Source: a virus (taxonomy: Duplodnaviria > Caudoviricetes). From it: a stretch of 64,000 nucleotides of DNA. The translations under genes were made by a program, and so were the position numbers. The stretch lies in IMG/VR virus record IMGVR_UViG_3300022074_000030, positions 2,077 to 66,076 of that record, one strand, 5' to 3'. Positions 1,455 to 23,927 of the stretch are shown in pieces (positions within the stretch are counted from its first letter, which is position 1; the number at the start of each line of letters is the position of its first letter). The notes beneath the pieces were generated by a model. That model was given only the letters and a program-made list of their open reading frames with translations, was not told the DNA's origin and made no database searches.

Positions 1455-1796
1455 TTATGTTTGCTCCACGAATGATACTATAATATCTAATGAATCTGAA
1501 TCCGATGATACCGCTTTTAATATATTTCCTGTTTGCATAATGATTTTATGATCACCACCTACAATAACTTCGGTACCGCCTGGTGCTATTGTAGCATTTT
1601 TTACAATATGTGCAACTTGTCCTGCTGCTCCGCCCGAATCTTGAATACCTGCACTAAAATTAACATTGTTGTTTGATAAAACATTTGCGGCAGACATGCC
1701 GATAACAATCGTTTTAGTAGCACTCGGACAAGTATATAATGTAGCAGAATCAGTACTTAATTGTGTATGCAATAAATTTTTTAATGTATTTGCCAT
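1455..1796 (-). CDS. Small virion structural/adaptor protein
   Basis: MANTLKN...LYTCPSATKTIVIG beta-sandwich type seen in myovirus fibre clusters. Confidence 0.55.
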   Translation of the reverse strand: MANTLKNLLHTQLSTDSATLYTCPSATKTIVIGMSAANVLSNNNVNFSAGIQDSGGAAGQVAHIVKNATIAPGGTEVIVGGDHKIIMQTGNILKAVSSDSDSLDIIVSFVEQT

Positions 1797-1799
1797 TTG

Positions 1800-1997
1800 T
1801 TATCCTCCGAAAATCAATGAATTAAGCAAAGCCTGATTATCGGCAATTGTTGTTACTTCTGATGAATCAGTAGAAATTAAAAGAACTTGCGATGAATCGA
1901 GTAATCCCGGAACTTCAATAGTTCTATCTATGTTGATTTTATTATCAACTACTGTGACTGCTTGTCCAAAGTCTGCTAATTCTCTTGCTTTTGTCAT
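1800..1997 (-). CDS. Small fibre adaptor protein
   Basis: MTKARELA N-terminus, SLIFGG C-terminus; directly behind a late promoter. Confidence 0.5.
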   Translation of the reverse strand: MTKARELADFGQAVTVVDNKINIDRTIEVPGLLDSSQVLLISTDSSEVTTIADNQALLNSLIFGG

Positions 1998-2002
1998 ATT
2001 GC

Positions 2003-2010
2003 TATTTATA
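2003..2010 (-). promoter_or_regulatory. T4-type late promoter TATAAATA
   Basis: Exact consensus in the short intergenic gap upstream of ATG 1997. Confidence 0.75.
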
Positions 2011-2012
2011 CC

Positions 2013-2303
2013 TTATGGTGTGGTTTGCGCTTCTATAGCAGTTTTGTAAGCTGCTTTTATATCATCAGTCCACACTGCATTGGCTACTGCTTGTACTTTG
2101 GTGTCTTCTGAACTTATGTCGGTATCTGTGTGTTTCCATGTATCGCCACTTTTTGATGATGAACATGGTTGCAGAATGTGCCTATGTCTTGACCTACTTA
2201 TTTCTGTGCCATCTTCTTTAATGACTGTATCGGTAGCTACTTGTATGCTCCAACCACCAACAACCTCAATCTTTTCTACTATTGTTTGTTTTTCTATTGC
2301 CAT
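2013..2303 (-). CDS. Tail-fibre-associated small protein (chaperone-like)
   Basis: KIEVVG...EDGxEISRS.HRH shared with 322..573. Confidence 0.65.
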   Translation of the reverse strand: MAIEKQTIVEKIEVVGGWSIQVATDTVIKEDGTEISRSRHRHILQPCSSSKSGDTWKHTDTDISSEDTKVQAVANAVWTDDIKAAYKTAIEAQTTP

Positions 2304-2315
2304 TTAAAACTCCTA

Positions 2316-3101
2316 TTATAATGCATAAGTACAAGAAAACTGTAATATCCCTGAAGTTGCACAAGAACTGTATTGAAATTCATTTACGGCAGTATTTTTT
2401 AATATAACTCCTGCACCTAAAAATCTTACTGCAACTATAGCTGTGTTATCAATTAAGTTACTAACTCTACCCATCGTAAATTGACAACTTTCTTCAGTAC
2501 TATTTCCACTAAATGGAAAACCTTCAATATTTACACTTGAACCATCTGAAGTATCAAGTCCACTAGCAACATTAATTGCACAAGTAAGATAAACAATATT
2601 ACCTATTTTAGTGTATCTTCCAGTTCTACTTGTAAAAGTAGGTGCAGAAACATTTGCAAAAGATGGAGTCCAAGTACCTTCTTCATAATCGTCAAGTAGA
2701 TTGCTATCTGCTGCAGATGTTGTGCCTAAATATATTCCATAACTACTATTACTAGGTAACCAATTACCATTTTTAAATATTTTCCATTTTGTTTCTAGTG
2801 TTCCACCATTTCGTGTTTGAAAAGCTAAGTTACCTTCATTAGAACCACTATGTGATTCACCAACAATCTTTGCAACTTCTCTCGTAGTTCCACCACTATC
2901 TTTACTTTTAAAGCTAATTGCTGGTCCTGTATTAGCTGAATGAGAACTTGTATCTTCTAATGTTAAAGTTGAAGTATCACTTGCGATATCGACTATTGTA
3001 TTTGGTGATGAAGTTCCAATGCCTAATTTTTGACCTGACGGAATCGTTACGGTGGTACCTTGAGCACCTTGTATTTGATCTGTCTTAATTATACCTGTCA
3101 T
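2316..3101 (-). CDS. Short tail fibre / receptor-binding protein
   Basis: LGIGTSSP shaft motif; LDDYEEGTWTP...YTKIGNIV tip. Confidence 0.7.
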   Translation of the reverse strand: MTGIIKTDQIQGAQGTTVTIPSGQKLGIGTSSPNTIVDIASDTSTLTLEDTSSHSANTGPAISFKSKDSGGTTREVAKIVGESHSGSNEGNLAFQTRNGGTLETKWKIFKNGNWLPSNSSYGIYLGTTSAADSNLLDDYEEGTWTPSFANVSAPTFTSRTGRYTKIGNIVYLTCAINVASGLDTSDGSSVNIEGFPFSGNSTEESCQFTMGRVSNLIDNTAIVAVRFLGAGVILKNTAVNEFQYSSCATSGILQFSCTYAL

Positions 3102-3505
3102 GCTAAGTCTCCGTGTATTGCACCACTATATTTTACTGAATCTGCCAAAGCACCATTTTGATAATGCGTGTGTTCATGTGTAGATGTTGCCATAGCTCCT
3201 GCATTTGCAAAAAAAGCATTTCCACCACTTGCAGTAGTAAATTGATGACCTATTGTTAAAGCAGAATCATCATTAGACATATTATTAGTATATGTAACTC
3301 TGATATTTCCAGTTCCTACATCTGTTAGAGAACTTGTATTAAAGCTATCAGCATAACTTGTTCCAGCTCCAACAGCTTGAACCCATGCCTTCGCCAACCC
3401 TTGATTTAATGTAGTACCAGCAGTTCCTTCACCTTGTATAGGAGATGAAACGGTGATATTAGTTCCAGTTCTTACTGCTAACTCATTGACTTCAATCTTA
3501 CTCAT
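3098..3505 (-). CDS. Short fibre-like structural protein
   Basis: QGLAKAWV...SFNTSSLTDVGTG motif common in phage fibre tips. Confidence 0.6.
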   Translation of the reverse strand: MSKIEVNELAVRTGTNITVSSPIQGEGTAGTTLNQGLAKAWVQAVGAGTSYADSFNTSSLTDVGTGNIRVTYTNNMSNDDSALTIGHQFTTASGGNAFFANAGAMATSTHEHTHYQNGALADSVKYSGAIHGDLA

Positions 3506-4005: not shown

Positions 4006-4013
4006 TTTTTACC

Positions 4014-4577
4014 TTACATATATGCTAAAGCGCAGGACCCGCCATTTAATGTCTGTCCACCAGCTTGTATTCTTACTGTTGTTATTGGATTAGAAAGAGC
4101 TTTATATCCAGCTGAATTAGAAACATAATCTTGATGTCTGATTTGTGCATGATAATAAAATTCATTTGGCACAGTACTGATCATGTGAACAAATCCAGAA
4201 ATTGCATTATTAGCTGCATTTTCGAAATATATTAAAAATATAGTTGTGCTATCTTGATGGCCACCATCATTTGTATGACCGCCGCCAGTGAATGTTACAG
4301 TTGATTTATAACCACTTGTTTCAATTCCACCACTATCTCCTATTTGAACACCTACGCTTGCAGTTGAACCAGCATGCTGAAAATCTTTTAAACTTAAAAA
4401 TATTTGTCTTGCTGAATTAGGTACTGTAAAATCTTTTGATGTACCACTCGTCGTTGCTTGTGATGCAACTTGTGTAATAATAGAGTTATTAAATGTAACA
4501 ACACCGCCACTACTTACATTCATAGCATTTGTTCCATTTGGATGTTGTATACTCTGTGTTCCTAAAATACTCGTCAT
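4014..4577 (-). CDS. Short fibre-like structural protein
   Basis: SILGTQSIQHPNG N-terminus shared with neighbours; QIGDSGGIETSGY motif. Confidence 0.6.
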   Translation of the reverse strand: MTSILGTQSIQHPNGTNAMNVSSGGVVTFNNSIITQVASQATTSGTSKDFTVPNSARQIFLSLKDFQHAGSTASVGVQIGDSGGIETSGYKSTVTFTGGGHTNDGGHQDSTTIFLIYFENAANNAISGFVHMISTVPNEFYYHAQIRHQDYVSNSAGYKALSNPITTVRIQAGGQTLNGGSCALAYM

Positions 4578-4801
4578 ACTATTGTTAACACTCCGTTAAT
4601 TTTTAAGTTTACGTCTGAATCTATACTATATGGTCCTACCACCATCGCACGTTCTGCAGAATCGATCGTAACATTGGTACCTAAGTTTGCATAGTTAATG
4701 TTAAAACTTTGTTTGATACCCTTACCTCCTGTGACTAAAACTGCAGGTGATGCTGAATCACCATCAGGATATTGTATTTCTTTTACACCTATTACGCTCA
4801 T
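4574..4801 (-). CDS. Small fibre adaptor protein
   Basis: IQYPDG N-terminus plus C-terminal VGPYSIDSDVNLKINGVLTIV shared with 6514..6900. Confidence 0.55.
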   Translation of the reverse strand: MSVIGVKEIQYPDGDSASPAVLVTGGKGIKQSFNINYANLGTNVTIDSAERAMVVGPYSIDSDVNLKINGVLTIV

Positions 4802-5094
4802 GATATTTTTATCTCATCAGATCTTTGTTTACGATTTTTATAGTCACTTCTTGCAGTTATGAGTGCAACAAAGTCTGCTTGATTGCTTGGTATAGGATCC
4901 GTAAAACTCTCGTCATTCATAAGTCTTGTGGTCCAGTCCTGTTGCATGCGCTTCCAACAGTTGTTTATTTTACCTGCTATTGCACCGTCAATCCAACTAT
5001 CTATTCCTGCATTGTCTGTATCATTATATAAATCATTAGACAAAATCTTCTGTTGTATATCTGTTAATGTTATTGTTTTCGTATAATTTGCCAT
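4798..5094 (-). CDS. Fibre-associated small helical protein
   Basis: 98-aa ORF with GGAG RBS, directly after a C1q-like fibre gene. Confidence 0.5.
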   Translation of the reverse strand: MANYTKTITLTDIQQKILSNDLYNDTDNAGIDSWIDGAIAGKINNCWKRMQQDWTTRLMNDESFTDPIPSNQADFVALITARSDYKNRKQRSDEIKIS

Positions 5095-5130
5095 TTTAAT
5101 CTCCTTTATGATTGAGCTGTTTCACTCTGG

Positions 5131-5908: not shown

Positions 5909-6514
5909 TTATCCTACTCTGTAGCCAAGCATGTATGTCATCATTTGGGTTGAATGACCCATTACATGGTTATCTGTAGCACTGCTATTAGTATAGTTAT
6001 ACATGTTACCTCTTAAATCAACATAATCACTAGAACCATTAAAATAAACTAATGAATTTACTTGGACTTCAATTTCTTTACCTGCACCTACTTTCATGCA
6101 CATTTGACCAATAGGTCTTGAAGTATCATTAGCTGACAAATATGGAGATGCACCATTAGAATGACTATGGCTTCCATTTTTATAAAGATAAGCATTCATA
6201 TTAACGTTATCATCAGCAGCTTTAGGTCGAAAACTAAGTTTACATTCAATGTAATAAAAGCCTGCTACTTGTGGTGTGTAGCGGTAATTGGAAGTATTAA
6301 AATAACTATCTGTATCAAAAACTTTTGTATTAAGACCAACTATGTCAGTACTACTAGATGCGATATTTTGATTTGCACCTAAATATACTTGGAATAAACC
6401 TAAGTTGTTTCTAACCATATCAACTTCACCAGAACTATTAATCGTCATAGCACTTGTCCCTGCCTGATTCTTAATTGTATCAGTTTTTACTTCATTTACT
6501 TTTATATCACCCAT
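5909..6514 (-). CDS. Short tail fibre with C1q-like head
   Basis: FDTDSYFNTSNYRYTPQVAGFYYI...YFNGSSDYVD pattern. Confidence 0.65.
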   Translation of the reverse strand: MGDIKVNEVKTDTIKNQAGTSAMTINSSGEVDMVRNNLGLFQVYLGANQNIASSSTDIVGLNTKVFDTDSYFNTSNYRYTPQVAGFYYIECKLSFRPKAADDNVNMNAYLYKNGSHSHSNGASPYLSANDTSRPIGQMCMKVGAGKEIEVQVNSLVYFNGSSDYVDLRGNMYNYTNSSATDNHVMGHSTQMMTYMLGYRVG

Positions 6515-6900
6515 TATACTACCATCAATGTTCCGTTAACTGTTATCGTTACACCTGAATCCACATTAAATGGACCTACTAGCAATCCATTACTGTTTGA
6601 ATCGATAGTGTGACTTCTCGATAAATTTTTTGGATTTGTTCTCAAATCAGCTGCAATCTTTCCAGTAATTGTTGTTGTTGTTATAATTGTATTTATACTA
6701 GCTGAGTCGGCTGCATCTTGTCGTAAAGCAATATAAGCAGAATCAACTTGAAAACCAATTGCCGAATCAATCATAGACTGAGTTGCTGCAGAATCAGTTC
6801 CTGCAGTTTGTCTTGCTTGAATATAATCGGAGTCTATCAAACCTTGAACATGAGTATCAACATTTGCATGTAGGTTAAATGCTTGAATTTTTGTTGCCAT
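6514..6900 (-). CDS. Fibre adaptor protein
   Basis: Contains a ~38-aa segment duplicated in the long fibre and the VGP...NGTLMVV C-terminus. Confidence 0.55.
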   Translation of the reverse strand: MATKIQAFNLHANVDTHVQGLIDSDYIQARQTAGTDSAATQSMIDSAIGFQVDSAYIALRQDAADSASINTIITTTTITGKIAADLRTNPKNLSRSHTIDSNSNGLLVGPFNVDSGVTITVNGTLMVV

Positions 6901-9900
6901 TATGCAGGTGTCCTTATTTCTCTAAGTTTAAAACTAACATTTGTTTTTGTTGGTGTAAGTTTTAATCTGACATTACCACTATTTATATCTGCATCAAAAG
7001 TACCAAGTGTTGAATCTAATAATACTTGTCCGTAAGTTGTCATAGCCACATTTGTACCATTATGTGTTAATAAAATTTCTTCGGCATGATAGCTATTACT
7101 CGAATCATGTTCAAGTTGTGCTACATATTTCATTGTTCTAAAACTAGCTGCCGCAAATGTATGAATGATTTGATTCGAACCAGTTGTGAGTAAATCAGAA
7201 TCAATTGCTCTTATTCCATTTATTTCTACAGTAGAGGCTTTAGCGAGTGATACAACCTCTACGATACTTCCTGCGCTTACTGCAGAATCAAATACAATAG
7301 ATGTTCCATTAGTTGCAGTAAAATCTTTTCCTGTTGCGAGTCTTGCACCGTTTAAGTAAACTTCTACTTTTCCTACATCATATGCTAATGTTGTTCCAGA
7401 TGAATCCTGTCCACTTACAGAATCTGATAATGCATCTATTGTGTAAAGATAAGGTTTGTAATCTCTCAATACTAAATTAGAAGAAAGTAATTGATGTGTT
7501 CTGACTTCTATTTCTGAAGATGAATCTGGTGCAGAGTCAAGTGTTAGAGTAGTTCCGGAAATACTATATGTATTTGTGTGTTGTAATAAACCATTGACAA
7601 ATACAAATGCATCATCAGAGTCAGCTGGAGCCTCCGTTAATGTAAAAGCTTTAGTAGAATTATCGCCTGAAAAACTACTTGTTGAAACGTTATTAATTGT
7701 TCCAGTTGTACCGCTACCACCTGTTATTGTGATTGTTTTAGTTGCACCTGATCCAGTTGCAGTTACATTATCACCTACAAAGTTTAGTGTAGTTGCAGAA
7801 GTTGATAGAGAACTACCTTCTTCTTGAACTGTTATAGCTCCGCCGGATTGTCTTAATTGTATATAAGCTGAATCAACTTGAAATCCAATTGATGAATCTA
7901 TCATGGCTTGTGTTGCAGCAGAATCCGTGCCTGCAGCTGTTCGTGCTTGAACATAATCAGAATCAACTAATTGTATCACTGCGGCAGAATCAATGTTTCC
8001 ACTTAATGCAGTTACTGATGCAAATGATAAGTTACCACTACCATCAGTTCTAATTACATGATTATTAAGACCGTCTGATGTTGGGAATATCAATCCTGCT
8101 GCAGTTAGCTTATCAAACTTTGCAGAGTCAGCTGAAACTTCACCGGTTACGTTTACACCAGAATCTGTTGTTGCTAATCTTGCAAGATTATTAAAGAATA
8201 ATGATACCGCACCGCCTGATAATGCTGTAATTTGGTTTTCGGTACCTGCTGCATTTTGAACTGTTAAGTTATTTGTCTGAAGTTGTAAAGAACCTGTTCC
8301 AGCATCTTGAATTACACTGTGACTTCCAGTGTGGAATATTTTTAAATCACTATCATTACCTACTGATAACTTAGCTAAGCCACCCGCAGCTCCTCCATCT
8401 GGTGCTTGTATTCCAGCAGCATTCATAAGAGTGATTGTTGCAGCGGAATCAGTACCTGGCGATTGTCTTGCCTGCACATAGGCTGAGTCAATTAATTGTA
8501 TTGCTTCAGCTGAATCTATACTGTATTGCCTTACTCTCGCTGGTGTGTGATATAAATTAGTGCTTCCTTCAGGTAGATCATCAGTATTAACTTGGTTTGT
8601 ACCTGTACCAAAATCAATATGTGTGTCATCGATACCATCAGCTTTAAGTGTTACTGCACCTGATGATACATCAAAATGATCACTACTAAAAGATGCTATA
8701 CCTTTGTTAGATGATGTAGCATCCTCACCAGATATTGTACCACTTGAAAAATCTATGCCTTCTCCAGCATTTATATAACTTTCTACTCGTGCATTTGTAT
8801 AGTAAAGATTAGTACCTTCAGTTAAATTTGTTGTTGTGAAACCTGTAAAGTTACGTGTACCAATTTGTAATGCATGACCCATATAACCATGAGAAGAACA
8901 TTGATAATGTAATACAGGAGGAGTAGCTTCTGTTATAGCTATTTCGGCATATGTTGCTGTAGTGGTTACACCTGTTGTATACTGTGTTGTTTTTGCAGCA
9001 TCATAATAAAATCTAAATGGATGATTTGACATATCACTTGAACTAAGTGTAAAACGATATGTTCTTCCAAGTTTTAAATTTATTACTGGAGATTCTGTTC
9101 CATCTATATAATAAGCTTGTCCACTACCACCACTGTAAACATGATTAACCTTTGCAGCAACTGTTACTGCAAAATTCTTTGTATCAGAATCATGCTGATT
9201 TCTTTCAACTGCGGTGTTTGCTGAATCTTTAGCAAAGAAATAATCACTATCAAAATTGTTAGCTGTGTAAACTGATTCAACATCAAAGCTAAATTCACCA
9301 GTGCCAGAGTTATAAGATAAGTCTCCACCAGCAGAAAACATTCCACGTACATTAGCAGAGTCGATATCGATAGTTCGACTTGAAGCTATATTACCACCGC
9401 CAGTTAAACCTTTACCAGCAACTATAGAAACTCCGGTATGAGCTACATGTTCGTCTGCAACAAAGCCTGATAAATTATCGTGTCTTATTATTGGCTCATA
9501 ATATGTTAAAAGTTCAGCAGAATCAATTGCTAAATCACGAGTTGATGCAATTGTTCCACCGCCTTTTAAACCAAAACCTGCTGTTATTGATACATCGCCG
9601 TGAGCAACATGTTCATCAGCTACAAATCCTGACAGATTATCATGTCTTATTATTGGTTCATAATATGTTAAAAGTTCAGCTGAATCAATTGCTAAATCCC
9701 TGGTAGATGCAATAGTACCTCCACCTTTCAAACCAAAACCTGCTGTAACTGAAACTGAAGTATGATCTATATGTTCATTTGCAACAAATCCAGTTAAATT
9801 ATCGTGTCTTATTATTGGTTCGTAGTATGTTAAGAGTTCTGCAGAATCTATGGCAAGATCACGAGTAGATGCGATATTGCCTCCACCTTTAAGACCAAAA

Positions 9901-14195: not shown

Positions 14196-14945
14196 CTATG
14201 ATTTAACTGTTTCAACAAAAGAGAATGCCGTACCGTTGTAGAATCCAACTGCAAGGTCAACTGAATTACCAAGTGATATACCTTGTGATACGCCACTATG
14301 AGTCCAATCGATTGTAAGATTGTTACTACCTGTAATTTTATCTACTACTACAGTTTGTCCTACGTTTAAACTACCATTTGCAATTTGTAATGTGATATCA
14401 CCTGATGTAGTATCAACTCTTACATATTGATCATCACTTGTACCCGGTGTAAATGTTTGAGAGCTCGTGATTGTTGACGGGTTAGCAACTGCACCCGGGC
14501 CTGTATATGTAAATACACCAGTTGAACTATTGTAAGCTAATGATCCACTACCACCAGCGTCTGTAACTGAAACTAATCCTCTTATTACTGATGAATCAAC
14601 TGAAAGATTACCACCTGCAAAATCAATACCATGACCTCCACTGATGTGTGAACGTACACTATCGGCACTTGGTCCAGTATAAGTTATATTTCCAGTAGCT
14701 GAATCATAAACTAATCCTCCATCACCTCCAGCATCGAGAACTTGAAGTGAATTTCTTGCTATGGTAGTAACGTCCGCTGAGTCAGTTTTATCTATCGCAA
14801 CTTTTAATTCGTTAATAGCACCTACAACATCTGAATCTACTGTTGTATTGAGATTAGTTAAATCACCAATTGTATTTGATAATTGGTTTGTCTTTGTAAC
14901 CCAGTTGGTTACGGTGTCTGTTAGGTTAACTGTAGTTTTAGCCAT
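14196..14945 (-). CDS. Short fibre / whisker-like protein
   Basis: DTVTNWVTKTN and VVGAINEL motifs; DAGG..YTGP repeats shared with the long fibre. Confidence 0.65.
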   Translation of the reverse strand: MAKTTVNLTDTVTNWVTKTNQLSNTIGDLTNLNTTVDSDVVGAINELKVAIDKTDSADVTTIARNSLQVLDAGGDGGLVYDSATGNITYTGPSADSVRSHISGGHGIDFAGGNLSVDSSVIRGLVSVTDAGGSGSLAYNSSTGVFTYTGPGAVANPSTITSSQTFTPGTSDDQYVRVDTTSGDITLQIANGSLNVGQTVVVDKITGSNNLTIDWTHSGVSQGISLGNSVDLAVGFYNGTAFSFVETVKS

Positions 14946-15144
14946 CTAATTTCTCTATAATTTGAGTTAACATTTTTTTAATATCACCGACTTCATCTTT
15001 TAAATTTTCAAACTCTTGTTCTTTTTGCTTTCTTTCAAGCTTTCTTTTTCTAGCTTCACTGATTTCATTTTTATTTATATTCAATATAGCACCAGTAGAC
15101 GTATCTCTTACTAAATCGCTATGTCCTTCTACATTTTTATACAC
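14938..15144 (-). CDS. Conserved small protein downstream of VrlC-like genes
   Basis: VEGHSDLVRDTSTGAILN plus coiled coil, typical of marine T4-like phages. Confidence 0.65.
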   Translation of the reverse strand: MYKNVEGHSDLVRDTSTGAILNINKNEISEARKRKLERKQKEQEFENLKDEVGDIKKMLTQIIEKLDG

Positions 15145-16717: not shown

Positions 16718-16739
16718 CTAATATCTCCTAAAATAATCA

Positions 16740-19700
16740 TTATGTCCATCCTCCGCCACCAAATCCACTATTATTGCTCTGACTGGTTTCTGTATCTTGA
16801 CAAGGATCATCACCCTGTTCAACAGTAGATGAGGCATTTAATCCACGGCTTCCATAAACACTTGAAGCATTACCATAAACACTACCTAAATTTCCGTAAG
16901 TCCCTGAAGAAGCAGTAGCGGGGTTGTATGTTCCAGCTTGCATAAGATCCATTGGCCCAGACCACACTCCATCTAAAGTATAATTGCTTAAATTTACATT
17001 AGCAAGATCTTTATTTGATACCCATGTATTACCACCATCGAATGATCTATAACCTCGATTATCCGGATTAGTTACATAATCATAATCGTCACCGCCACCA
17101 TTGCCTCCTGAGTAATAATAAGGTCTATATATTATTCTTGTTGATATATATTCCGCTTGTTTTGTATCAATAAATCCAGAGGATGTATATGGTGCTGATG
17201 ATATTGCTGCAGCATTGACTTCTTTGTCTACACTTATATCAAGTATTTTAAATTGTCGTGTACCAGTTCTTATTTTAGTTGTTTCATTATTTGGTACAAT
17301 AAACGATCCTGATATAAATCCATTTGGATCGGTGACTAATGTTGATGCGCCATCTGGGTGTGTAGTAATATTTTTTAATGTATTTCCGAAATCTGAATCG
17401 GTGTCAGAATAAAATTGAAAAGAACCTTCACCACCGGCTCCATTCGTTAAATCACTTATATTATTTCCATCTAAGAATGTGAAAACTCTTGTATTAGGTC
17501 TTAATCCTGATGCTTTGAAATAAACTTTTCGTGCTCTCATAAAATGAGATAATACTGATTCAATAACTCTGTCTTCTACTAAATTTAATATAGATTCATT
17601 TGTAACAACTCTTTCAACAGCCTGATCTGTAGTAGTACCGGCCCAATCATAGACATGATTATTGAATAAGTAAGAAGGTCTTCTTGAAATTGTTGACCCG
17701 CCAGGAACTATTTTATCTGGTAGTCTTTCAACATCTCTCCACTCGTCAGAAGCTGGTGATAATGTTATAGTTCCAGCAAATATTGAAACTGCGAATGGAT
17801 TTATTTTTATTCCTTTACTAGCAGTTGTTTGATTTATATAAACTGCTTCATCATGAGTTGGATATATGTTATCACCTTTTTTAATTGTATTTGTAGAACT
17901 TGCTGAATCATAAACCATTCTTAATTGATCTTCATTAAAAAACGCTCTCAGTTGTTGTTTTTGTAGATCAATAGATGCTCTGTATTCATTAGAAGGAGTG
18001 ATTTGAGAAAAGCTATGGTTTTTAAAGTTGTCAACTAAAAACCCACTTTTTGTTCTATTATTACCAGATGAGTCAAGGACTTCAAGATTTTTTGTATCAA
18101 GTTCTAATAAATTCAATGTAGTAAATTCTTCGAGCCTATCGACACGTTTTTCAATTCGTCCTATATCTTTCATAGTAAATCTTCTATAGTTGAATCGACT
18201 TACTGAAACATCAGAGTCATTTAACGTTGCGGGATTCATTCCAATATCAAATAAAGGAAGAGTGCCTTCAAGCTTATCTGGAAATAATGGGTTAAATGAT
18301 GGTGCACCATCTACTAAAGAAAAGTTAGAATTACGATCTATTGATAATTTACTAGCAAGGCCTAAATTATATGTAGCATCTGTTGTTATAGTTGTGCCAA
18401 CTTTAGGTAGTTCCAACATAGTTGAACCGCTTGTATTAAAATTACCGGCTGAATCTGCAACTGATCTAAAATCTATGAAATCTCTTAAATTTACAACTTC
18501 TCCGGCAGGAGTTTTGAAATCAGGTATTTTATTATAATCAACTTGACCGCTGTAAGAGTTTACAGAAAAATAGTCTCCAGATGTACTTGGTTCAAAAAAT
18601 TTATACTTAACAAAAATATCACCTGCTGGAGCAGATTGACCACCAGCCAATATTAGTCTCCCTGGTTCATACCTTGATGGTCTTTGACCGTTATCTAAAA
18701 TAAATCTACTTGAATAATTAGTACTACTATCACCAGCTTTCACTATTTCATCAACTTCAAATATATCTGCACGTTTTAAATTAATGAATTTAAAACCAGC
18801 ACCATCTGATTCAACAGTGTTAGTTAAATTAAAAGTAGTTAAAGTTTTTGTTTTTGGAGATGTTTGAGTTTTACTTATAAAAGATGCAAATTCTATATTT
18901 GATGAACTCGCAATTGTTGCAACAGGACCACTTGTTCCAAAATCTACAGTTCCGCCTGTTCCACCGCCTGTTAAATTGATAGTAGGTGATGTTATAGCCA
19001 CATCACTATCTGCTTTTGCGAAAACAAAATCATCTGTTTGTGTATAAATTTCACCAGCTGTAGTTAGTCCTGTTAAAGTTATTACACCAGAACTATTAGC
19101 TGAAAGATTAGTAAATTTTCTTTGAGCCGTATATGTTAAATCTGTAAGTGACTTCGCTCTTGGTTTAGGTAATGGAAATAAGCTGAAGTCATTAGCAGCT
19201 TCTTTCAATATTGCCTTTGAATTTTCAAGTTTAACATCAAAATAATTACTTGTTGATGTACCTATGCTTTTTACATTACGAAAAGCATTTCCTGAATTTA
19301 ATTTAATGTCTGTAAGATGCATCTTTAAGTCAGTACCACTCTTCGTAATAGCTTTAATTCTCGCAGTTCCAAGTGTACTACCACCGTGTTCTACAGCTGA
19401 TCTTAAATTCATTTCTTCCATTTCATTAAAGTTTGGAATACCGTTCGTAGTTGTAGAACCACCTACACTTACGTCTACTAAGACGTGATGACCTAATGTT
19501 GTACCTACGGGTTCATTGTTGATTACTGCCGTTTGTGAGGGTTTGAGTATTCTTAATGTGGTAGGATATCCTCTGGTTGCTCTGTAACCATCGACTACAA
19601 CCGTACCATCACTTATTTTCAATAATAAATGTGTATTTTCTGAATCTAATTCAAATCTTGCGTTAAAAGGTTTTACAATGTAGTCACCAGAATTTTCTCT

Positions 19701-20597
19701 TATACGTGTAGCGATTAAATCATTTGGTATATTATATGCATTATCAGCTTCAAGTGCTTCAAATATAGCGCCATTAAATATAGTTGCAACATGAATAAAA
19801 TTTTCGCTGGCTGATAAATCAGTGCGTTCTGCAATACTTAAAGTGATACGATATCTATCTGCGCCAGGTGCACTTACATTAGGAACCGCACCTTGATTAT
19901 CATACAATGCATTATTATCACTTGCATTGACAACTTCTTCAACAACTTTAAAACCAATATCCGTACTTGGTGTATCACTATACTTTGATATTATTTTACT
20001 TTGATCTTGAGTAAATACAAAATTACCACGTGCATAATATATACCACTACGTAGTGTAGCCTGTGTTCCTGTTCCCGTGGAAGGATCTGCTAATGTAGAA
20101 AGTTTTACTTTTAAATCTGTTCCGTCTGAAACATCCATAATTTCATTAGACGCCATTCTCTGTGTTACAACATCACCACTACTTTGTGCAGAACTGGTGT
20201 TTGTATATTTTACATAAAGTGTAGCAGGGTCACTGCCAGCTGCAGCAACTGCTTCTAATATCGTTGCAACAATACTTGAGGTTTGACCAGTAACAGTTTT
20301 GCCAACAAGTGAAGTAACATCTGTAGGCATGACGTGTGAAGGATCCGTTTCATCTAATTTAATAAATTCATACTGCGGATTGATGTTGCATCCACCGGGT
20401 TTTACAACTACACCTTCTTTAAAAACATTATTACCGAATCTTTCAATTTGTTTTTGTAATATTGTTTGTAGTTGTGTTAATTCTCTTGCTTGTAATCCTA
20501 CACCCGAATTAAATAATATTCTATGATAGTTATCACTATCACGAAAATCATCTTTATACGTACTTGATAAGGTGGTTTCTGTAAACGTTGTCGCCAT
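16740..20597 (-). CDS. VrlC/DUF4815-like structural protein, N-terminal part
   Basis: YKDDF..YHRILF..LQARELTQLQTILQ, APGADR, RFTMKDIG and KSGFLVDNF motifs. Confidence 0.8.
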   Translation of the reverse strand: MATTFTETTLSSTYKDDFRDSDNYHRILFNSGVGLQARELTQLQTILQKQIERFGNNVFKEGVVVKPGGCNINPQYEFIKLDETDPSHVMPTDVTSLVGKTVTGQTSSIVATILEAVAAAGSDPATLYVKYTNTSSAQSSGDVVTQRMASNEIMDVSDGTDLKVKLSTLADPSTGTGTQATLRSGIYYARGNFVFTQDQSKIISKYSDTPSTDIGFKVVEEVVNASDNNALYDNQGAVPNVSAPGADRYRITLSIAERTDLSASENFIHVATIFNGAIFEALEADNAYNIPNDLIATRIRENSGDYIVKPFNARFELDSENTHLLLKISDGTVVVDGYRATRGYPTTLRILKPSQTAVINNEPVGTTLGHHVLVDVSVGGSTTTNGIPNFNEMEEMNLRSAVEHGGSTLGTARIKAITKSGTDLKMHLTDIKLNSGNAFRNVKSIGTSTSNYFDVKLENSKAILKEAANDFSLFPLPKPRAKSLTDLTYTAQRKFTNLSANSSGVITLTGLTTAGEIYTQTDDFVFAKADSDVAITSPTINLTGGGTGGTVDFGTSGPVATIASSSNIEFASFISKTQTSPKTKTLTTFNLTNTVESDGAGFKFINLKRADIFEVDEIVKAGDSSTNYSSRFILDNGQRPSRYEPGRLILAGGQSAPAGDIFVKYKFFEPSTSGDYFSVNSYSGQVDYNKIPDFKTPAGEVVNLRDFIDFRSVADSAGNFNTSGSTMLELPKVGTTITTDATYNLGLASKLSIDRNSNFSLVDGAPSFNPLFPDKLEGTLPLFDIGMNPATLNDSDVSVSRFNYRRFTMKDIGRIEKRVDRLEEFTTLNLLELDTKNLEVLDSSGNNRTKSGFLVDNFKNHSFSQITPSNEYRASIDLQKQQLRAFFNEDQLRMVYDSASSTNTIKKGDNIYPTHDEAVYINQTTASKGIKINPFAVSIFAGTITLSPASDEWRDVERLPDKIVPGGSTISRRPSYLFNNHVYDWAGTTTDQAVERVVTNESILNLVEDRVIESVLSHFMRARKVYFKASGLRPNTRVFTFLDGNNISDLTNGAGGEGSFQFYSDTDSDFGNTLKNITTHPDGASTLVTDPNGFISGSFIVPNNETTKIRTGTRQFKILDISVDKEVNAAAISSAPYTSSGFIDTKQAEYISTRIIYRPYYYSGGNGGGDDYDYVTNPDNRGYRSFDGGNTWVSNKDLANVNLSNYTLDGVWSGPMDLMQAGTYNPATASSGTYGNLGSVYGNASSVYGSRGLNASSTVEQGDDPCQDTETSQSNNSGFGGGGWT

Positions 20598-20609: not shown

Positions 20610-21971
20610 CTAAAGTGTAACTACTACTTTGATGTCTTCTGTTTGTGATGCATCTCTTATAACTGGTGCTCTATTTTCTATATATAAAATATCTCCAGAA
20701 GTATTTATGAGATCTTCAACGGCCGGAGCCGCATTAATTGTTCCTGTATTACCTTGTTCATCTGTTAATGTATCACCTATACCAAAAGGTGTATAACCTG
20801 TACTATCTGTTTGATGAAAGTAAACATCGCTATCCGAAACTTGGTTTACATATGCTTTTGCTGGTGGTACAGTGTTATTAAAAATTAACTCGTCAACTGC
20901 TAGATTTCCTGCAAATGTTAAGTCAGTTTTTAAGAATCTTAAAGCTTTACCTGTAGTTGCTGTTAATGTACCAGCAGCTGAATCCTTTGGATTTTTTATT
21001 AACATAACTTGTCTAAAATCTACATTAGTTCCTGCTAAAAAGTCTCCACCTTCTATTCCAGATGGTTTAGCATTAAACATTAATGATGTTGCCTTTAATT
21101 CATCTCTTGGATCAGCACCTATACCATTTGGTGGACCTAGTACTGCACGTGCCACTGCACCACTTCCTCCGCCACCTGTTATCGTTACAGATGCATTTGT
21201 AAAGTTTTTACCTGATCCTGAACTTTCATTTAGCATTTCGATCTTAACAACAGATCCTCCAGACACTGTTGCTGTGGCCTGTGCACTATCACCTATAGCT
21301 CTTGAATTTCCTGTTAATGTTATTGAAGGTGCACTTGTGTAACCGGAGCCTCCGTTAGTAACTGCTACGTTTAATATCCTACCAGCTACAGCTGAATCTT
21401 GAACTGTTGCTTGTTGAACTTCAATGGCAGTTAAACCAGTACCACCTGCCGAATCTAATATTTTTTCTACTGGCACAAAGTTAGCTGACAAGAATGCACT
21501 TGCATTTGAAGCACTTAATGCATATAAAAATTTCCACGTGTATCCATCAGATGTTTTAAATGCATTTTGAGAAGTTCCTGTTGGTTTTACGGTTGATACG
21601 TTTGCAGCTCCATTAGCATTTTTACTTTGTTGTAAACATATATAAACTTGGTTATCTTCAGTTAAAACATAATAACTGTTTGTAGGTATTGCTGCTACAT
21701 TATCATCAAATGCATCATACACAGAACCTGAAGACCAATTTCTTCTTGGTATAACAAATGATGCTCCTGCAACTGCCTTTACTGATTGCAAAGCATTTTG
21801 TGCTTCTCTGATAGTTCTCGGTGTGTCGGTTGGAGTCGGAACAGTTTCAGTAGAATTCCACTGATCATTTTTTCCAATTCCAATGTAATACCTACCAGTA
21901 AGGTTTTTCACTTCATCAAATATATTTTGCATGAATTGTTTTTTAAATGGGTCTGTAATTATTGCTGACAT
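20610..21971 (-). CDS. gp8: Baseplate wedge subunit gp8
   Basis: IPRRNW, VYICL, DGYTWKFLY, GDILYIENR..EDIKVV; synteny. Confidence 0.85.
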   Translation of the reverse strand: MSAIITDPFKKQFMQNIFDEVKNLTGRYYIGIGKNDQWNSTETVPTPTDTPRTIREAQNALQSVKAVAGASFVIPRRNWSSGSVYDAFDDNVAAIPTNSYYVLTEDNQVYICLQQSKNANGAANVSTVKPTGTSQNAFKTSDGYTWKFLYALSASNASAFLSANFVPVEKILDSAGGTGLTAIEVQQATVQDSAVAGRILNVAVTNGGSGYTSAPSITLTGNSRAIGDSAQATATVSGGSVVKIEMLNESSGSGKNFTNASVTITGGGGSGAVARAVLGPPNGIGADPRDELKATSLMFNAKPSGIEGGDFLAGTNVDFRQVMLIKNPKDSAAGTLTATTGKALRFLKTDLTFAGNLAVDELIFNNTVPPAKAYVNQVSDSDVYFHQTDSTGYTPFGIGDTLTDEQGNTGTINAAPAVEDLINTSGDILYIENRAPVIRDASQTEDIKVVVTL

Positions 21972-21981
21972 ATTCTATTCC

Positions 21982-22914
21982 TTATGATACCGTTACTTCA
22001 CCTTGGTTTCCTACTAAAAACCAGTTTGATCCGTCCCATATACAAGTACAACCATCGTTCTGTGCTAGAACAAATTTAGTACCTTGTGCAAAGTTAGTTG
22101 GTGTAACGTGCATTGCACCTGCACCTTTGTTTGTAAAAATTTTATATTCACCTACAGTTGTTCCGTCCGCTAATGATACATCTAGTTGAGAACCTTTGTT
22201 ACCTATTATTAAAGTTGCTGCCGTACTTGCTGCACCATTTGCAGTTATAGTTGAAGAACTAAAAGCTGCTTTATTAAGTTCAACAGAACCTGTGCCTTTT
22301 GGTGTCATAATAATGTTTAAATCAGTTCCACCACCTGTAGCAGAAAGTGTAGGTCCAGTTGTTGATGCACCGTTTGCAATTGTTAATTCGTTAACCGCAC
22401 TACCTGTAGTTGTAAATTTTATGAATTCGTTTCCAGCTGCATCATTAAGCGATGTACCAATCTTAGGAGTATTTATGGTTGGTGATGTTAATGTTTTATT
22501 AGTTAATGTATCGGTTGTAGCTCTTCCTACAAGTGTATCCGTTGATGTAGGTAAAGTTAAAGTACCAGTGTTTTTAATTGATGCTATAGTTGGTACTGTT
22601 AATGTTTTATTAGTTAATGTTTGAATTGTATTATTAAGAGTAACTGTACCAGTTGAATCTGGTAATGTTATAACATTATCTTGTGTTGCATTTGTAGATT
22701 TTAATCTTGTTTCAAAATCATTAGCCGAAGAACCTTCAAATACTACTGCATCATTTTCTAAAGTAATTTGTGATGATAGATTACTACTATCTCCTCCACC
22801 GAGTAATGCATATACTTCAGCAAAGTTTGCATTTATCTTGGTGCCAGCAGTTCGTAATGTATCTCCATTACCATCATTTGCTGAGCTACCTATGCCTATA
22901 TTTTGTCTAGTCAT
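21982..22914 (-). CDS. Baseplate/tail-fibre connector, gp9/gp10-like N-terminus
   Basis: IGIGSSANDGNGDTLRTAGTKINANFAEVY; TLTNKTLT repeats. Confidence 0.75.
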   Translation of the reverse strand: MTRQNIGIGSSANDGNGDTLRTAGTKINANFAEVYALLGGGDSSNLSSQITLENDAVVFEGSSANDFETRLKSTNATQDNVITLPDSTGTVTLNNTIQTLTNKTLTVPTIASIKNTGTLTLPTSTDTLVGRATTDTLTNKTLTSPTINTPKIGTSLNDAAGNEFIKFTTTGSAVNELTIANGASTTGPTLSATGGGTDLNIIMTPKGTGSVELNKAAFSSSTITANGAASTAATLIIGNKGSQLDVSLADGTTVGEYKIFTNKGAGAMHVTPTNFAQGTKFVLAQNDGCTCIWDGSNWFLVGNQGEVTVS

Positions 22915-22937
22915 TTAATCTTTCCTAATAATAGTTC

Positions 22938-22945
22938 TATTTATA
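22938..22945 (-). promoter_or_regulatory. T4-type late promoter TATAAATA
   Basis: Exact consensus, intergenic. Confidence 0.75.
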
Positions 22946-22958
22946 CTAAAAACACTCG

Positions 22959-23927
22959 TTATGAATTAAAAGATGAATCAAATTGTTCATTGTCCATAGT
23001 CTCGAGAGCAAGTGAGAAGTCTGGTCTTGCTGTTCCTGCACTGTCACCTATATCACTATCATCAAATGTAAACGATTTAACAGTTAATATTTCATTAACA
23101 CTACCATAGATAGTATTTAATTGATTAGCAGGTATAGATTGATATTTATCAATTGTTTGACCAAGCTGTGATCTAAGACCTCCGCTATCAATTGATAATC
23201 CGCCTGATAAAAGTGTCATTTGAGTAAATGGTGCAATAGCACTCATAACTGCAGATGATATAACACCGGGGTTACCACTATCTGGAGATGCTAATGGTGC
23301 ACTTAATGTTCCTACAGCTTCTACATCCGTTTGGACTGAACCTGCAATATAAAACCCTGCAGGATGCACAAACTTTTTATATAGTTCTATCCAAGTGGTT
23401 TGCGCTAATGGACTTTTAATTAATATAGAATAAATTTGGTATAATGCATTATTTCTAATAAATTTATTTGATTCAGCACCAATTCTGCTCAACGGTCCAG
23501 CAGAATCATGACCTACAGTGAATATATCATTCTTAGGATATTCTACTTCTACATTTTGTTGATAGAAAGCTCTAAAAAATTCTTCAATAGAAAACCTGCT
23601 TCCTTTAGTTCTATGCAGTTCATGTATTCTTTGTGCATAGAAATTAGGATCAGTAAAGTTGTCTCCAGTATTACCTGCGGCTATTTCAGATATTAATGTG
23701 CTCAAAAGCTTTGAAGGTACTTCTTGAGTATCACGTGTTTGATATATTTGTCTTAGTTGATTATCAAAGGAACTAACATCATCTGAATCTAAGTAGTCAT
23801 AATACTTTTCTAAAAAAGTGACGAGCTTTGGAAAATCTTGTGTAAAAAATTCAGGTAAAGCATCACGTACTTTTCTATGAAGAAAGTTACGTGGTCTACG
23901 ATTTTGATGATATTTAATTTCAGCCAT
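22959..23927 (-). CDS. gp7: Baseplate wedge initiator, short gp7-like
   Basis: LPEF..FLEKYYDYL, TKGS, YQIYSILIKS, VHPAGF; follows gp6. Confidence 0.75.
   Translation of the reverse strand: MAEIKYHQNRRPRNFLHRKVRDALPEFFTQDFPKLVTFLEKYYDYLDSDDVSSFDNQLRQIYQTRDTQEVPSKLLSTLISEIAAGNTGDNFTDPNFYAQRIHELHRTKGSRFSIEEFFRAFYQQNVEVEYPKNDIFTVGHDSAGPLSRIGAESNKFIRNNALYQIYSILIKSPLAQTTWIELYKKFVHPAGFYIAGSVQTDVEAVGTLSAPLASPDSGNPGVISSAVMSAIAPFTQMTLLSGGLSIDSGGLRSQLGQTIDKYQSIPANQLNTIYGSVNEILTVKSFTFDDSDIGDSAGTARPDFSLALETMDNEQFDSSFNS

What the first reader, a model, noticed from the sequence alone, without database searches (positions are those of the whole stretch)
1455..23927. Strong Asp-Ser (DSA/DSS/DSD) enrichment confined to virion stalk, adaptor and wedge proteins
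Seen (hand counts, approximate): ~53 DS in the 1896-aa fibre, 7 in the 128-aa adaptor, 3 in the 75-aa adaptor, 4 in the 113-aa protein, 5 in 14196..14945, 6 in gp8 and 7 in gp7. By contrast there are ~2 in gp6 (618 aa), ~3 in NrdJ (737 aa) and few in the receptor-tip proteins. The motif occurs in unrelated contexts and with varied codons, so selection appears to act on the protein. Established: D-(S/T)-(A/I/L/V/M/T) is the Bacteroidota O-glycosylation sequon, and some phages glycosylate virion proteins. Inference: DS is a sequon for a virion-wide modification (glycan shield or similar), or a repeated cation-binding or capping motif. No modifying enzyme is visible in this window.
Basis: partly seen in the sequence, partly recalled or inferred. 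Interest (0 to 1): 0.78.

Follow-up and report, generated by a model that had tools for sequence, protein, structure and literature searches.

The report
Asp-Ser-small motif on phage fibres
The tail fibres and outer baseplate of this uncultured marine T4-like phage carry the three-residue motif Asp-Ser-(Ala/Asp/Ser) about seven times more often than chance; it most likely caps the short helices and turns of the fibre building blocks, and a role as a modification tag is not excluded.

Summary
In detail: every hand count is exact (53 DS in the 1896-aa fibre against 16.9 expected). DS is the most enriched dipeptide of the fibre/wedge block (118 vs 51.3) and the most depleted one of the inner baseplate block (5 vs 20.2).

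The real motif is hydrophobic-D-S-[A/D/S]: 92 sites vs 13.1 expected. DT, ES, NS and SD followed by A/D/S are not enriched. Selection acts on the protein, since Ser codons look like background and GANTC is not enriched in other frames. The excess survives repeat removal (80 vs 39.5). Several small proteins are paralogues of fibre modules, so "unrelated contexts" is only partly true.

The pattern is specific to a clade: present in relatives with gp6 45-99% identical, absent in HTVC008M and weak in C48C1.

Models put six of 12 sites at a helix start. A trimer model puts the residue before D on the fibre axis.

The Bacteroidota sequon does not fit. No transferase was found in this contig, and a sugar/GT25 island found in relatives is missing at the syntenic site here.

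Best reading: a structural cap or turn motif (0.5). A tag read in trans remains possible (0.3), because the inner-baseplate depletion and the strict D-S are unexplained.

This scan noted the same pattern in at least 15 other windows, with split verdicts.

The parts
6900..12590 (-). 1896-aa modular tail fibre, with four near-identical 54-aa repeats around residues 840-1060
   Evidence: 53 DS vs 16.9 expected. 48 DS[A/D/S] vs 5.0. PHROG tail fibre and virion structural protein families, and Pfam DUF4183. One module matches the fibre gp28 of cyanophage P-SCSP1u, 8i4m_e, E 7e-10.
6514..6900 (-). 128-aa fibre-associated protein, a paralogue of fibre residues 1529-1606
   Evidence: 7 DS vs 1.0. 55% identity to the fibre. 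D23-S24, D100-S101 and D114-S115 are invariant and D36-S37 is at least 90% conserved in 29 homologues. A trimer model passes.
4574..4801 (-). 75-aa protein, a paralogue of the C-terminus of the 128-aa protein
   Evidence: 3 DS vs 0.5. 38% identity over 65 residues.
3098..3505 (-). 135-aa small fibre-cluster protein
   Evidence: 3 DS vs 0.6, p 0.01.
1455..1997 (-). 113-aa and 65-aa small fibre-cluster proteins
   Evidence: 4 vs 0.6 and 2 vs 0.6. The 65-aa protein resembles the 249-aa protein.
14196..14945 (-). 249-aa protein built of modules shared with fibre residues 367-767
   Evidence: 5 DS vs 2.5. Paralogy shown. AlphaFold model with pLDDT 72.8: helices start at S56 and S118, and one residue after S38.
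15137..20597 (-). VrlC-like outer baseplate protein, present as two ORFs (1285 aa with DUF4815, then 526 aa)
   Evidence: Both match phrog_358. DS[A/D/S] is 8 vs 2.2 and 4 vs 0.7. DS sites are kept in 70% and 58% of clade orthologues.
20610..21971 (-). gp8-like baseplate wedge protein with a fibre-like insert
   Evidence: Matches phrog_438 and Pfam Phage-Gp8. 6 DS vs 2.3; DS[A/D/S] 5 vs 0.6.
22959..23927 (-). 322-aa gp7-like wedge protein
   Evidence: Matches Pfam Baseplate_wedge. 7 DS vs 2.4; DS[A/D/S] 5 vs 0.6.
23927..35084 (-). Inner baseplate and tail block that avoids the motif: gp6, gp25, hub/gp5-like, gp53-like, gp48-like and two unnamed proteins
   Evidence: 5 DS vs 20.2, the most depleted dipeptide. 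DS[A/D/S] is 1 vs 4.5. Names from PHROGs.

Best explanation
The enriched unit is the short motif hydrophobic-Asp-Ser-(Ala/Asp/Ser). It most likely works as a built-in cap-and-turn element of the modular, trimeric fibre and outer-baseplate domains.

Proposed mechanism: the hydrophobic residue sits in the core or on the three-fold axis. The Asp (in some sites the Ser) caps the N-terminus of the short helix that follows, or closes a beta-hairpin turn. The small third residue leaves room for this. The motif would thus set where each short building block starts.

The excess arises for two reasons. These proteins are made of very many such short blocks, partly spread by duplication and module exchange between the fibre and its small partner proteins. 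This phage clade has also fixed Asp-Ser as its preferred cap.

Shown: the motif, its statistics, its conservation and its restriction to the clade. Model-based: its position at helix starts and next to the trimer axis. Inferred: that capping is its function and that nothing reads it in trans.
For: Context of the motif:
- Position -1 is I/L/M/F/V/W/Y in 47% of 118 sites, against a background of 29%.
- Position +2 is A (48), D (22) or S (22).
- Glu is threefold enriched at +3.
- Hydrophobic peaks at +4 (39%) and +7/+8 (51%/41%) give a helical spacing.

AlphaFold models:
- 128-aa protein (pLDDT 58.2, low): helices start at S24, S37 and S54, each the Ser of a DS.
- 249-aa protein (pLDDT 72.8): helices start at S56 and S118 and one residue after S38. 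DS95-96 lies in a first helical turn. DS81-82 lies at a hairpin turn.
- Together, 6 of 12 sites are at a helix start, against a chance of about 0.06 per site.

Trimer model of the 128-aa protein:
- Score 0.75, best of 3 controls 0.00.
- That mark was reached by 20 of 30 proteins solved as pairs and 1 of 23 solved as single chains.
- The runs agree in at least 81% of contacts, and the partner pLDDT is at least 83.
- The calibration holds only roughly here, because I used my own alignment and three copies.
- I22 and I44, each directly before a DS, touch their own copies across chains. This places them on the axis.

Conservation:
- DS pairs are invariant or nearly so in 29 homologues of the 128-aa protein.
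- In clade orthologues of the wedge proteins, DS pairs are kept in 44-72% of sequences. Independent D and S conservation would give about 20-36%.

Paralogy and distribution:
- The small proteins are paralogues of fibre modules.
- The same module types occur in tail fibres of 152 phage records from cyanobacterial, Roseobacter and Pelagibacter hosts.
- Remote homologues of the 249-aa protein still carry DS[A/D/S] at 2.6 times expectation.

Precedent: N-capping layers in trimeric fibres, including phage fibres, consist of a hydrophobic core residue followed two residues later by a D/N/T/S cap (PMC4786415, passages read).
Against: 1. A generic cap should accept S, T, D or N. Here only D-S is enriched: DT[A/D/S] 12 vs 14.2, NS[A/D/S] 11 vs 13.1, ES[A/D/S] 3 vs 6.3, SD[A/D/S] 10 vs 13.3.

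2. The enrichment is specific to a clade, not to fibres in general. HTVC008M outer proteins have DS[A/D/S] at 15 vs 13.5, and C48C1 at 49 vs 27.0. Close relatives of the 249-aa protein have DS at 2.49 times expectation, remote ones at 1.06.

3. In four non-repetitive wedge/VrlC proteins DS[A/D/S] is 22 vs 4.1. The HTVC008M and C48C1 orthologues have DS at only 1 of about 46 aligned window sites. Those alignments are at about 35% identity and so are uncertain.

4. Capping does not explain why DS is the most depleted dipeptide of the inner baseplate.
- Window: 5 vs 20.2.
- Complete relative G001: 13 vs 24.9.
- 53 clade loci: upstream block 251 vs 485.5, gp6 75 vs 216.8.
- gp6 homologues of 36% identity or less have 339 vs 288.2.

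5. Only half of the modelled sites are at helix starts. One model has low confidence, and no solved structure covers these modules.
Confidence: 0.5

Rival explanations
1. D-S-[A/D/S] is a tag read in trans. The most plausible form is a sequon at which a phage-encoded (or host cytoplasmic) enzyme modifies the Ser of outward-facing virion proteins, for example with a sugar. Inner baseplate proteins would then lose the motif because modification there would disturb assembly. The motif may sit at helix starts simply because these are exposed.
For: - Strict three-residue specificity: D not E or N, S not T, third residue A/D/S.
- A two-way pattern that is specific to the clade. Outer proteins are at about twice expectation and the inner baseplate at 0.35-0.65, in 53 loci with gp6 47-99% identical.
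- The same pattern holds in G001, G009 and G010.
- The DS ratio in gp6 rises from 0.60-0.73 in close representatives to 1.18 in remote ones.
- New motif sites appear in non-repetitive orthologous proteins.
- In gp6, DS sites of the outgroups are replaced in the window, once by the cap-like N-T.
- Candidate enzymes exist in the clade. The complete relative G001 has two NAD-dependent sugar epimerase/dehydratases, a GT25 glycosyltransferase (57.1 bits, cut-off 24) and a weak GT8-like ORF.
- GT25 is present in G001 and G002 but not in HTVC008M or C48C1.
- Of 10 large GT25-bearing IMG/VR contigs, 9 carry a gp6 that is 45-54% identical to the window's.
- Only 1 of 50,697 phage records has a homologue of this GT25.
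Against: - No modification has been shown.
- No glycosyltransferase was found in the own contig. PF00535 and PF01755 searches and BLAST with the C48C1 and HTVC008M enzymes were negative. The contig is only 37% complete.
- The 20-kb island that carries GT25 in G001 (74-94 kb) is missing at the syntenic junction of the window (42784-43783), although this window has the strongest enrichment, 6.9 times.
- The co-occurrence of GT25 with the clade is a single phylogenetic event, tested against two outgroups only.
- Pelagimyophage glycosyltransferases are read in print as modifiers of host LPS (PMC7029224, passages read).
- Capsid, sheath and portal of G001 are not depleted: 14 vs 15.0.
- Many sites are invariant and lie next to core residues.
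Confidence: 0.3
2. The motif forms cation-binding layers. Three Asp residues next to the axis residue of the trimer, helped by the Ser hydroxyls, would hold Ca2+ or Mg2+ from seawater and stiffen the fibre.
For: - The residue before D lies on the three-fold axis in the trimer model.
- The strict need for Asp rather than Asn or Glu, and for small neighbours, would fit a coordination site.
- The phages are marine.
Against: - No ion was modelled and no solved structure is available.
- Several sites lie in hairpin turns or in regions outside the modelled interface, for example S101 and S115 of the 128-aa protein.
- The reading does not explain the inner-baseplate depletion.
Confidence: 0.08
3. The motif is the Bacteroidota general O-glycosylation sequon, used by the host's machinery on phage proteins.
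For: D-S-A, the commonest form (48 of 118 sites), fits D-(S/T)-(A/I/L/V/M/T). With the broader Tannerella motif, 89 of 118 sites fit (PMC8550257).
Against:
- Thr is not used.
- Export to the periplasm is required for that glycosylation (PMC8550257, passages read). T4-like virions assemble in the cytoplasm (general knowledge).
- The cultured relatives with a named host infect SAR11 and OM43, and the shared fibre modules occur in phages of cyanobacteria, Roseobacter and Pelagibacter.
Confidence: 0.02
4. The excess is a by-product, either of repeats and paralogy alone or of DNA-level selection for GANTC sites (GAY-TCN encodes Asp-Ser).
For: - The fibre has internal repeats, and four small proteins are its paralogues.
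- GANTC is two to three times enriched in 1-16000.
Against: - After repeat removal, 80 vs 39.5 remain.
- Four non-repetitive proteins have DS[A/D/S] at 22 vs 4.1.
- GANTC by frame is 93/9/9. 27% of the Ser codons after D are AGY, which cannot form GANTC. Asp codons are as in the background.
Confidence: 0.03

Closest known systems
Helix N-cap with hydrophobic staple and capping box (general protein-structure motif; recalled, no paper read here)
   Same: - A hydrophobic residue before the cap.
- Asp or Ser at the helix start, Glu enriched three residues on, and a hydrophobic residue at +4.
- Helices start at the Ser in the models.
   Different: Generic caps accept S, T, D or N. Here only D-S followed by A/D/S is enriched, and only in one phage clade.
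N-capping beta-layers of trimeric alpha/beta coiled coils, including phage fibres (Hartmann et al. 2016, PMC4786415; passages read)
   Same: - A trimeric fibre.
- A hydrophobic residue on the axis, followed two residues later by a D/N/T/S residue that caps the next helix.
- Repeated at short intervals. DS spacings of 8, 9, 12 and 13 residues are the commonest here.
   Different: - The published consensus is [aliphatic]-A-T-K-[polar]-[D/E], with a small hydrophobic central residue.
- Here the central residue is Asp, and there is no K/R or D/E at the expected places.
- No beta-layer was seen directly.
Host recognition cluster of pelagimyophages and cyanomyophages (Zaragoza-Solas et al. 2020, PMC7029224; passages read)
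   Same: - A hypervariable block of fibre genes downstream of VrlC in marine T4-like phages.
- In relatives it contains glycosyltransferase and radical-SAM cassettes. A radical-SAM/SPASM-like ORF lies in the fibre block of G001.
   Different: - The paper does not describe an Asp-Ser motif in the passages I read.
- It reads the transferases as modifiers of host LPS.
- The part of the cluster in this window holds no enzyme gene that I could find.
Bacteroidota general protein O-glycosylation, sequon D-(S/T)-(A/I/L/V/M/T) (PMC8550257; passages read)
   Same: A three-residue motif that starts with Asp and has the hydroxyl residue second. D-S-A fits.
   Different: The third-residue spectrum differs, Thr is not used, export is required, and the host group does not fit.
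Virus-encoded glycosylation of virion proteins: mycobacteriophage capsid and tail glycosylation, and mimivirus collagen glycosyltransferases (search listings and abstracts only); SdgA/SdgB glycosylation of staphylococcal Ser-Asp repeats (recalled)
   Same: The virus or cell modifies Ser/Thr or hydroxylysine of surface fibres in the cytoplasm. The Ser-Asp context resembles the D-S-D form (22 of 118 sites).
   Different: - No modification has been shown here.
- No GT1/GT4-type gene (PF00534) was found in the five related records searched, including the complete G001. The own contig was not searched with PF00534.
- The sites are isolated motifs, not long Ser-Asp repeats.

Membership tests
Bacteroidota general O-glycosylation sequon | Third residue is A/I/L/V/M/T | tested here: not met
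   58 of 118 sites fit.
Bacteroidota general O-glycosylation sequon | Ser or Thr is accepted at the second place | tested here: not met
   DT is 36 vs 55.0 and DT[A/D/S] is 12 vs 14.2 in the outer block.
Bacteroidota general O-glycosylation sequon | The substrate is exported to the periplasm | not tested
   The requirement is stated in PMC8550257. I did not test for signal peptides. Cytoplasmic assembly of T4-like virions is general knowledge.
Bacteroidota general O-glycosylation sequon | The host is a Bacteroidota | tested here: inconclusive
   The host is unknown. The cultured relatives with a named host infect SAR11 and OM43. There are no tRNA genes in the window.
Helix N-cap / hydrophobic staple | The motif lies directly before a helix | tested here: inconclusive
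   6 of 12 sites in two AlphaFold models (pLDDT 58 and 73), against a chance of about 0.06 per site. These are models only.
Helix N-cap / hydrophobic staple | Hydrophobic residues before the cap and at +4 | tested here: met
   47% at -1 and 39% at +4, against a 29% background over 118 sites.
Helix N-cap / hydrophobic staple | Cap residues S, T, D and N are interchangeable | tested here: not met
   Only D-S is enriched. DT, NS, ES and SD followed by A/D/S are at 0.48-0.85 of expectation.
N-capping beta-layer of trimeric coiled coils (PMC4786415) | A homotrimer with the first motif residue on the axis | tested here: met
   The trimer model scores 0.75 vs 0.00 for the best control. Contacts 22:22 and 44:44 form across chains. 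This is a model, not a structure.
N-capping beta-layer of trimeric coiled coils (PMC4786415) | Consensus [aliphatic]-A-T-K-[polar]-[D/E] | tested here: not met
   The second residue is Asp, and the following positions are A/D/S and variable.
Phage-encoded virion glycosylation | A glycosyltransferase gene in the phage genome | tested here: inconclusive
   None was found in the own contig, which is 37% complete. GT25 is present in the relatives G001 and G002. The GT25 island is missing at the syntenic site of the window.
Phage-encoded virion glycosylation | A glycan is attached to virion proteins | not testable with these tools
   This needs mass spectrometry or a glycan stain of virions or of recombinant protein.

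The most novel reading that the evidence does not exclude
D-S-[A/D/S] is a clade-specific attachment code. A phage-encoded enzyme would mark the Ser on every outward-facing tail, baseplate and fibre protein of an abundant group of uncultured marine T4-like phages. The enzyme could be the GT25/sugar-nucleotide island seen in relatives, or one not yet recognised. Selection would remove the motif from the inner baseplate. This would be the first sequon-directed virion modification system described for marine myophages.
Probability: 0.3. Interest if true: 0.85.

Novelty: new variant of a known kind. Interest (0 to 1): 0.58.

Why it matters
If the motif is structural, it gives a simple sequence rule for finding and delimiting the building blocks of the very large, unannotated fibres of marine T4-like phages. 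No solved structure covers these modules.

If it is a tag, these phages would coat their host-recognition apparatus in a programmed way. That would bear on host range, on virion persistence in seawater and on how phage glycosyltransferases are read; they are currently assigned to host LPS modification.

Either way, the clade-specific enrichment outside and depletion inside the baseplate is a clear and testable signature.

Tried and rejected
DNA-level cause (GANTC, which is GAY-TCN): rejected. The sites are in frame 0 only (93/9/9), and Ser and Asp codon use is like the background.

Repeat artefact: rejected. 80 vs 39.5 remain after tile removal, and four non-repetitive proteins carry 22 vs 4.1.

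Depletion as a property of the gp6 fold: rejected. 121 remote gp6 representatives have 515 vs 464. The ratio falls only in representatives of 40% identity or more (6 fragments under 450 aa left out). Part of the depletion outside the baseplate is a family baseline: non-fibre proteins are at 0.76 in HTVC008M and 0.83 in G001.

Solved structures:
- The only sequence hit is the fibre of cyanophage P-SCSP1u. According to the paper, its distal part, where the match lies, was not resolved.
- The profile of the 128-aa family found nothing.
- Foldseek with the 249-aa model found nothing at E 0.001 or better. The best weak rows were phage tailspike and baseplate proteins.

Searches that found nothing or nothing relevant:
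- tblastn of the 128-aa protein against phage records: no match.
- A literature search for phage tail-fibre O-glycosylation: 7 papers listed, none relevant. I did not search the literature for the Asp-Ser motif itself, so I do not claim that it is not in print.
- GT2 and GT1 (PF00535, PF00534): absent from five related records, including the complete G001.
- Homologues of the C48C1 and HTVC008M glycosyltransferases: absent from G001 and from the own contig.

Rows left out of counts: I analysed 53 of the 80 loci. I left out 27 by eye because they were short or held only part of gp6.

Supplementary tables of the papers were not available. Table S1 of PMC8550257, which lists the glycosylation sites, could bear on the third-residue comparison.

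Full report
WHAT THE WINDOW IS. All long ORFs in 1-35084 lie on the minus strand, and GC is 33-39%. PHROGs and Pfam name the following:
- gp6 (23927..25783).
- A gp7-like wedge protein (22959..23927).
- gp8 (20610..21971).
- A VrlC/DUF4815-like protein in two ORFs (16740..20597 and 15137..16717).
- A 1896-aa tail fibre (6900..12590).
- Upstream of gp6: gp25, hub/gp5-like, gp53-like and gp48-like proteins.

The gp6 protein is 43% identical to that of phage C48C1, 36% to Pelagibacter phage HTVC008M and 35% to the Methylophilales Melnitz phages. The contig is a 66-kb fragment estimated at 37% complete. The region downstream of VrlC corresponds to the 'host recognition cluster' described for pelagimyophages (PMC7029224, passages read).

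THE OBSERVATION.
- In block 1455-23927, DS occurs 118 times against 51.3 expected. It is the most enriched of 294 dipeptides tested (z 9.3, next 4.3).
- SD is at expectation (52 vs 51.3) and DT is below it (36 vs 55.0).
- The signal is a tripeptide. D-S-[A/D/S] occurs 92 times against 13.1 in within-protein shuffles (sd 3.6, maximum 25 of 1000). DS followed by any other residue is 26 vs 38.0.
- DT, ES, NS and SD followed by A/D/S are at 0.48-0.85 of expectation.
- The residue before D is hydrophobic in 47% of sites, against a 29% background.

IS IT AN ARTEFACT? It is not a DNA-level effect. GAY-TCN contains GANTC, and GANTC is two to three times enriched in 1-16000. However, the sites are in frame 0 only (93/9/9). 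27% of the Ser codons after D are AGY, and Asp codons are as elsewhere.

It is not only repeats, though repeats contribute. The 128-aa, 75-aa, 249-aa and 65-aa proteins are paralogues of fibre modules or of each other, and the fibre has four near-identical 54-aa repeats. So 'unrelated contexts' is only partly right. After dropping every 30-aa tile that resembles earlier sequence, 80 vs 39.5 remain. The four non-repetitive wedge/VrlC proteins carry DS[A/D/S] at 22 vs 4.1.

THE OTHER HALF OF THE PATTERN. In the inner baseplate block 23927-35084, DS is the most depleted of 255 dipeptides (5 vs 20.2). In the remaining minus-strand genes it is 15 vs 27.1.

Part of this is a family baseline. Non-fibre proteins of HTVC008M are at 0.76 (115 vs 151, with ES also low), and those of the complete relative G001 are at 0.83.

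The inner-baseplate value goes beyond that baseline and is conserved.
- In 53 IMG/VR loci with gp6 47-99% identical, the upstream block has 251 vs 485.5, gp6 has 75 vs 216.8, and the downstream wedge/fibre genes have 1220 vs 587.8. 27 of the 80 loci were left out as short or partial.
- In G001 (152.7 kb, terminal repeats, gp6 60% identical), DS is the most enriched dipeptide of the outer block (180 vs 105.2) and the most depleted one of the inner baseplate (13 vs 24.9). The terminase-to-capsid block is at 14 vs 15.0.
- G009 and G010 show the same pattern. One fibre has 102 vs 37.0 and another 40 vs 10.5, while gp6 has 1 vs 4.2 and 1 vs 4.6.

The depletion is not a property of the gp6 fold. Among 144 full-length gp6 representatives, the DS ratio by identity to the window is as follows:
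- at least 47%: 0.73
- 43-46%: 0.60
- 40-42%: 0.86
- 37-39%: 1.00
- 36% or less: 1.18

CLADE SPECIFICITY OF THE ENRICHMENT.
- HTVC008M outer proteins have DS[A/D/S] at 15 vs 13.5.
- C48C1 outer proteins have 49 vs 27.0.
- G001 outer proteins have 121 vs 28.0, and the window has 92 vs 13.3.
- Close relatives of the 249-aa protein have DS at 2.49 times expectation, and remote ones at 1.06. The remote ones still carry DS[A/D/S] at 2.6 times.
- At the window's DS sites in gp8, VrlC and the gp7-like protein, the HTVC008M and C48C1 orthologues have DS at 1 of about 46 aligned sites. These alignments are at about 35% identity.
- Within the clade, DS pairs are kept in 44-72% of orthologues. That is more than independent conservation of D and S predicts. 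gp8 orthologues keep a mean of 7.4 DS (3.0 expected) although only 44% of the window's sites are kept, so there is some turnover at constant density.

WHERE THE MOTIF SITS.
- In 29 homologues of the 128-aa protein, D23-S24, D100-S101 and D114-S115 are invariant and D36-S37 is nearly so.
- The AlphaFold model of that protein (pLDDT 58, low) starts helices at S24, S37 and S54.
- The model of the 249-aa protein (pLDDT 73) starts helices at S56 and S118 and one residue after S38. It places DS95-96 in a first helical turn and DS81-82 at a hairpin turn.
- In total, 6 of 12 sites are at helix starts, against a chance of about 0.06 per site. The rest are turns, coil or inside a helix.
- Over all 118 sites, Glu is enriched at +3, and hydrophobic residues peak at +4 and +7/+8.
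- A three-copy model of the 128-aa protein scored 0.75, with the best of 3 controls at 0.00. That mark was reached by 20 of 30 proteins solved as pairs and 1 of 23 solved as single chains. The runs agree in at least 81% of contacts and pLDDT is at least 83. The calibration holds only roughly here. I22 and I44, the residues directly before two DS pairs, touch their own copies across chains.
- This resembles the N-capping layers of trimeric fibres described by Hartmann et al. (PMC4786415), but the published consensus is not met.
- No solved structure covers these modules.

THE SEQUON READING. The Bacteroidota sequon fails on the third residue, on Thr and on the need for export. The cultured relatives with a named host infect SAR11 and OM43.

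A phage-directed modification cannot be excluded. Evidence that keeps it open:
- The complete relative G001 has a 20-kb island with two sugar epimerase/dehydratases, a GT25 transferase and a weak GT8-like ORF.
- GT25 is in G001 and G002, but not in HTVC008M or C48C1.
- Only 1 of 50,697 phage records has a homologue. 290 IMG/VR stretches encode one.
- 9 of 10 large GT25-bearing contigs hold a gp6 45-54% identical to the window's.

Evidence against GT25 as the writer:
- This co-occurrence is one clade against two outgroups.
- The own contig has no GT2, no GT25 and no homologue of the two phage transferases.
- Gene order is collinear with G001, yet the island (G001 74-94 kb) is missing at the junction 42784-43783 of the window. 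The window nevertheless has the strongest enrichment.
- Since 63% of the genome is unseen, this weakens GT25 as the writer but does not rule it out.

VERDICT.
- Shown: the motif is real, acts at the protein level, is specific to a clade and is conserved.
- Best supported but only model-based: it works as a cap or turn element of short fibre modules next to the trimer core.
- Unexplained by that reading: the strict D-S, the gain of sites in non-repetitive proteins, and the depletion in the inner baseplate. Together these keep a tag read in trans at about 0.3.

Other agents of this scan reported the same pattern on at least 15 other windows and were split in the same way. I used their notes as leads to three papers and tested the claims myself.

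Noticed in passing
window 42784-43783, against G001 74-94 kb (loci L091-L092): Gene order is collinear with the complete relative G001. A 20-kb island of G001 is absent here. It holds PhoH, two sugar epimerase/dehydratases, GT25 and a GT8-like ORF. Only one of its genes has a homologue elsewhere in the window (60559..60966).
   Followed up: partly
L094:8070-9284 (-), inside the fibre block of G001: A 404-aa ORF on the opposite strand with weak radical-SAM (27.9 bits, below the cut-off of 29.5) and SPASM (21.7 bits, cut-off 21.5) matches. It could be a protein-modifying enzyme inside a fibre gene block. It has no counterpart in this window.
   Followed up: no
window 53859-56082 (-): Two neighbouring ORFs match the PHROG families called 'cytidyltransferase' (phrog_3041, phrog_395). 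They are 57% identical to the C48C1 gene of that name. Next to them lie DUF6267 and unnamed proteins. Function was not examined.
   Followed up: no
window 15137-20597 (-): The VrlC-like protein, a single gene of about 2000 aa in HTVC008M, is present as two ORFs of 1285 and 526 aa. G001 is split in a similar way.
   Followed up: no
window 9400-10100 (-), fibre residues about 840-1060: Four near-identical 54-aa tandem repeats. Each holds an H-x-H-like stretch, a G-G-G turn and one I-D-S-A-E motif.
   Followed up: partly
window 1-16000: GANTC sites (the CcrM/HinfI-type site) are two to three times over expectation, as a by-product of in-frame GAY-TCN codons. If the host methylates or cuts GANTC, the fibre genes would be hot spots.
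   Followed up: partly
window 35138-35641 (+): A 167-aa ORF with a TnsA-like endonuclease N-terminal domain (PF08722, E 9e-17), lying between the baseplate block and the plus-strand structural genes.
   Followed up: no
window 59916-60383 (-): A 155-aa ORF that matches about two thirds of the Na+/Pi cotransporter domain (PF02690).
   Followed up: no
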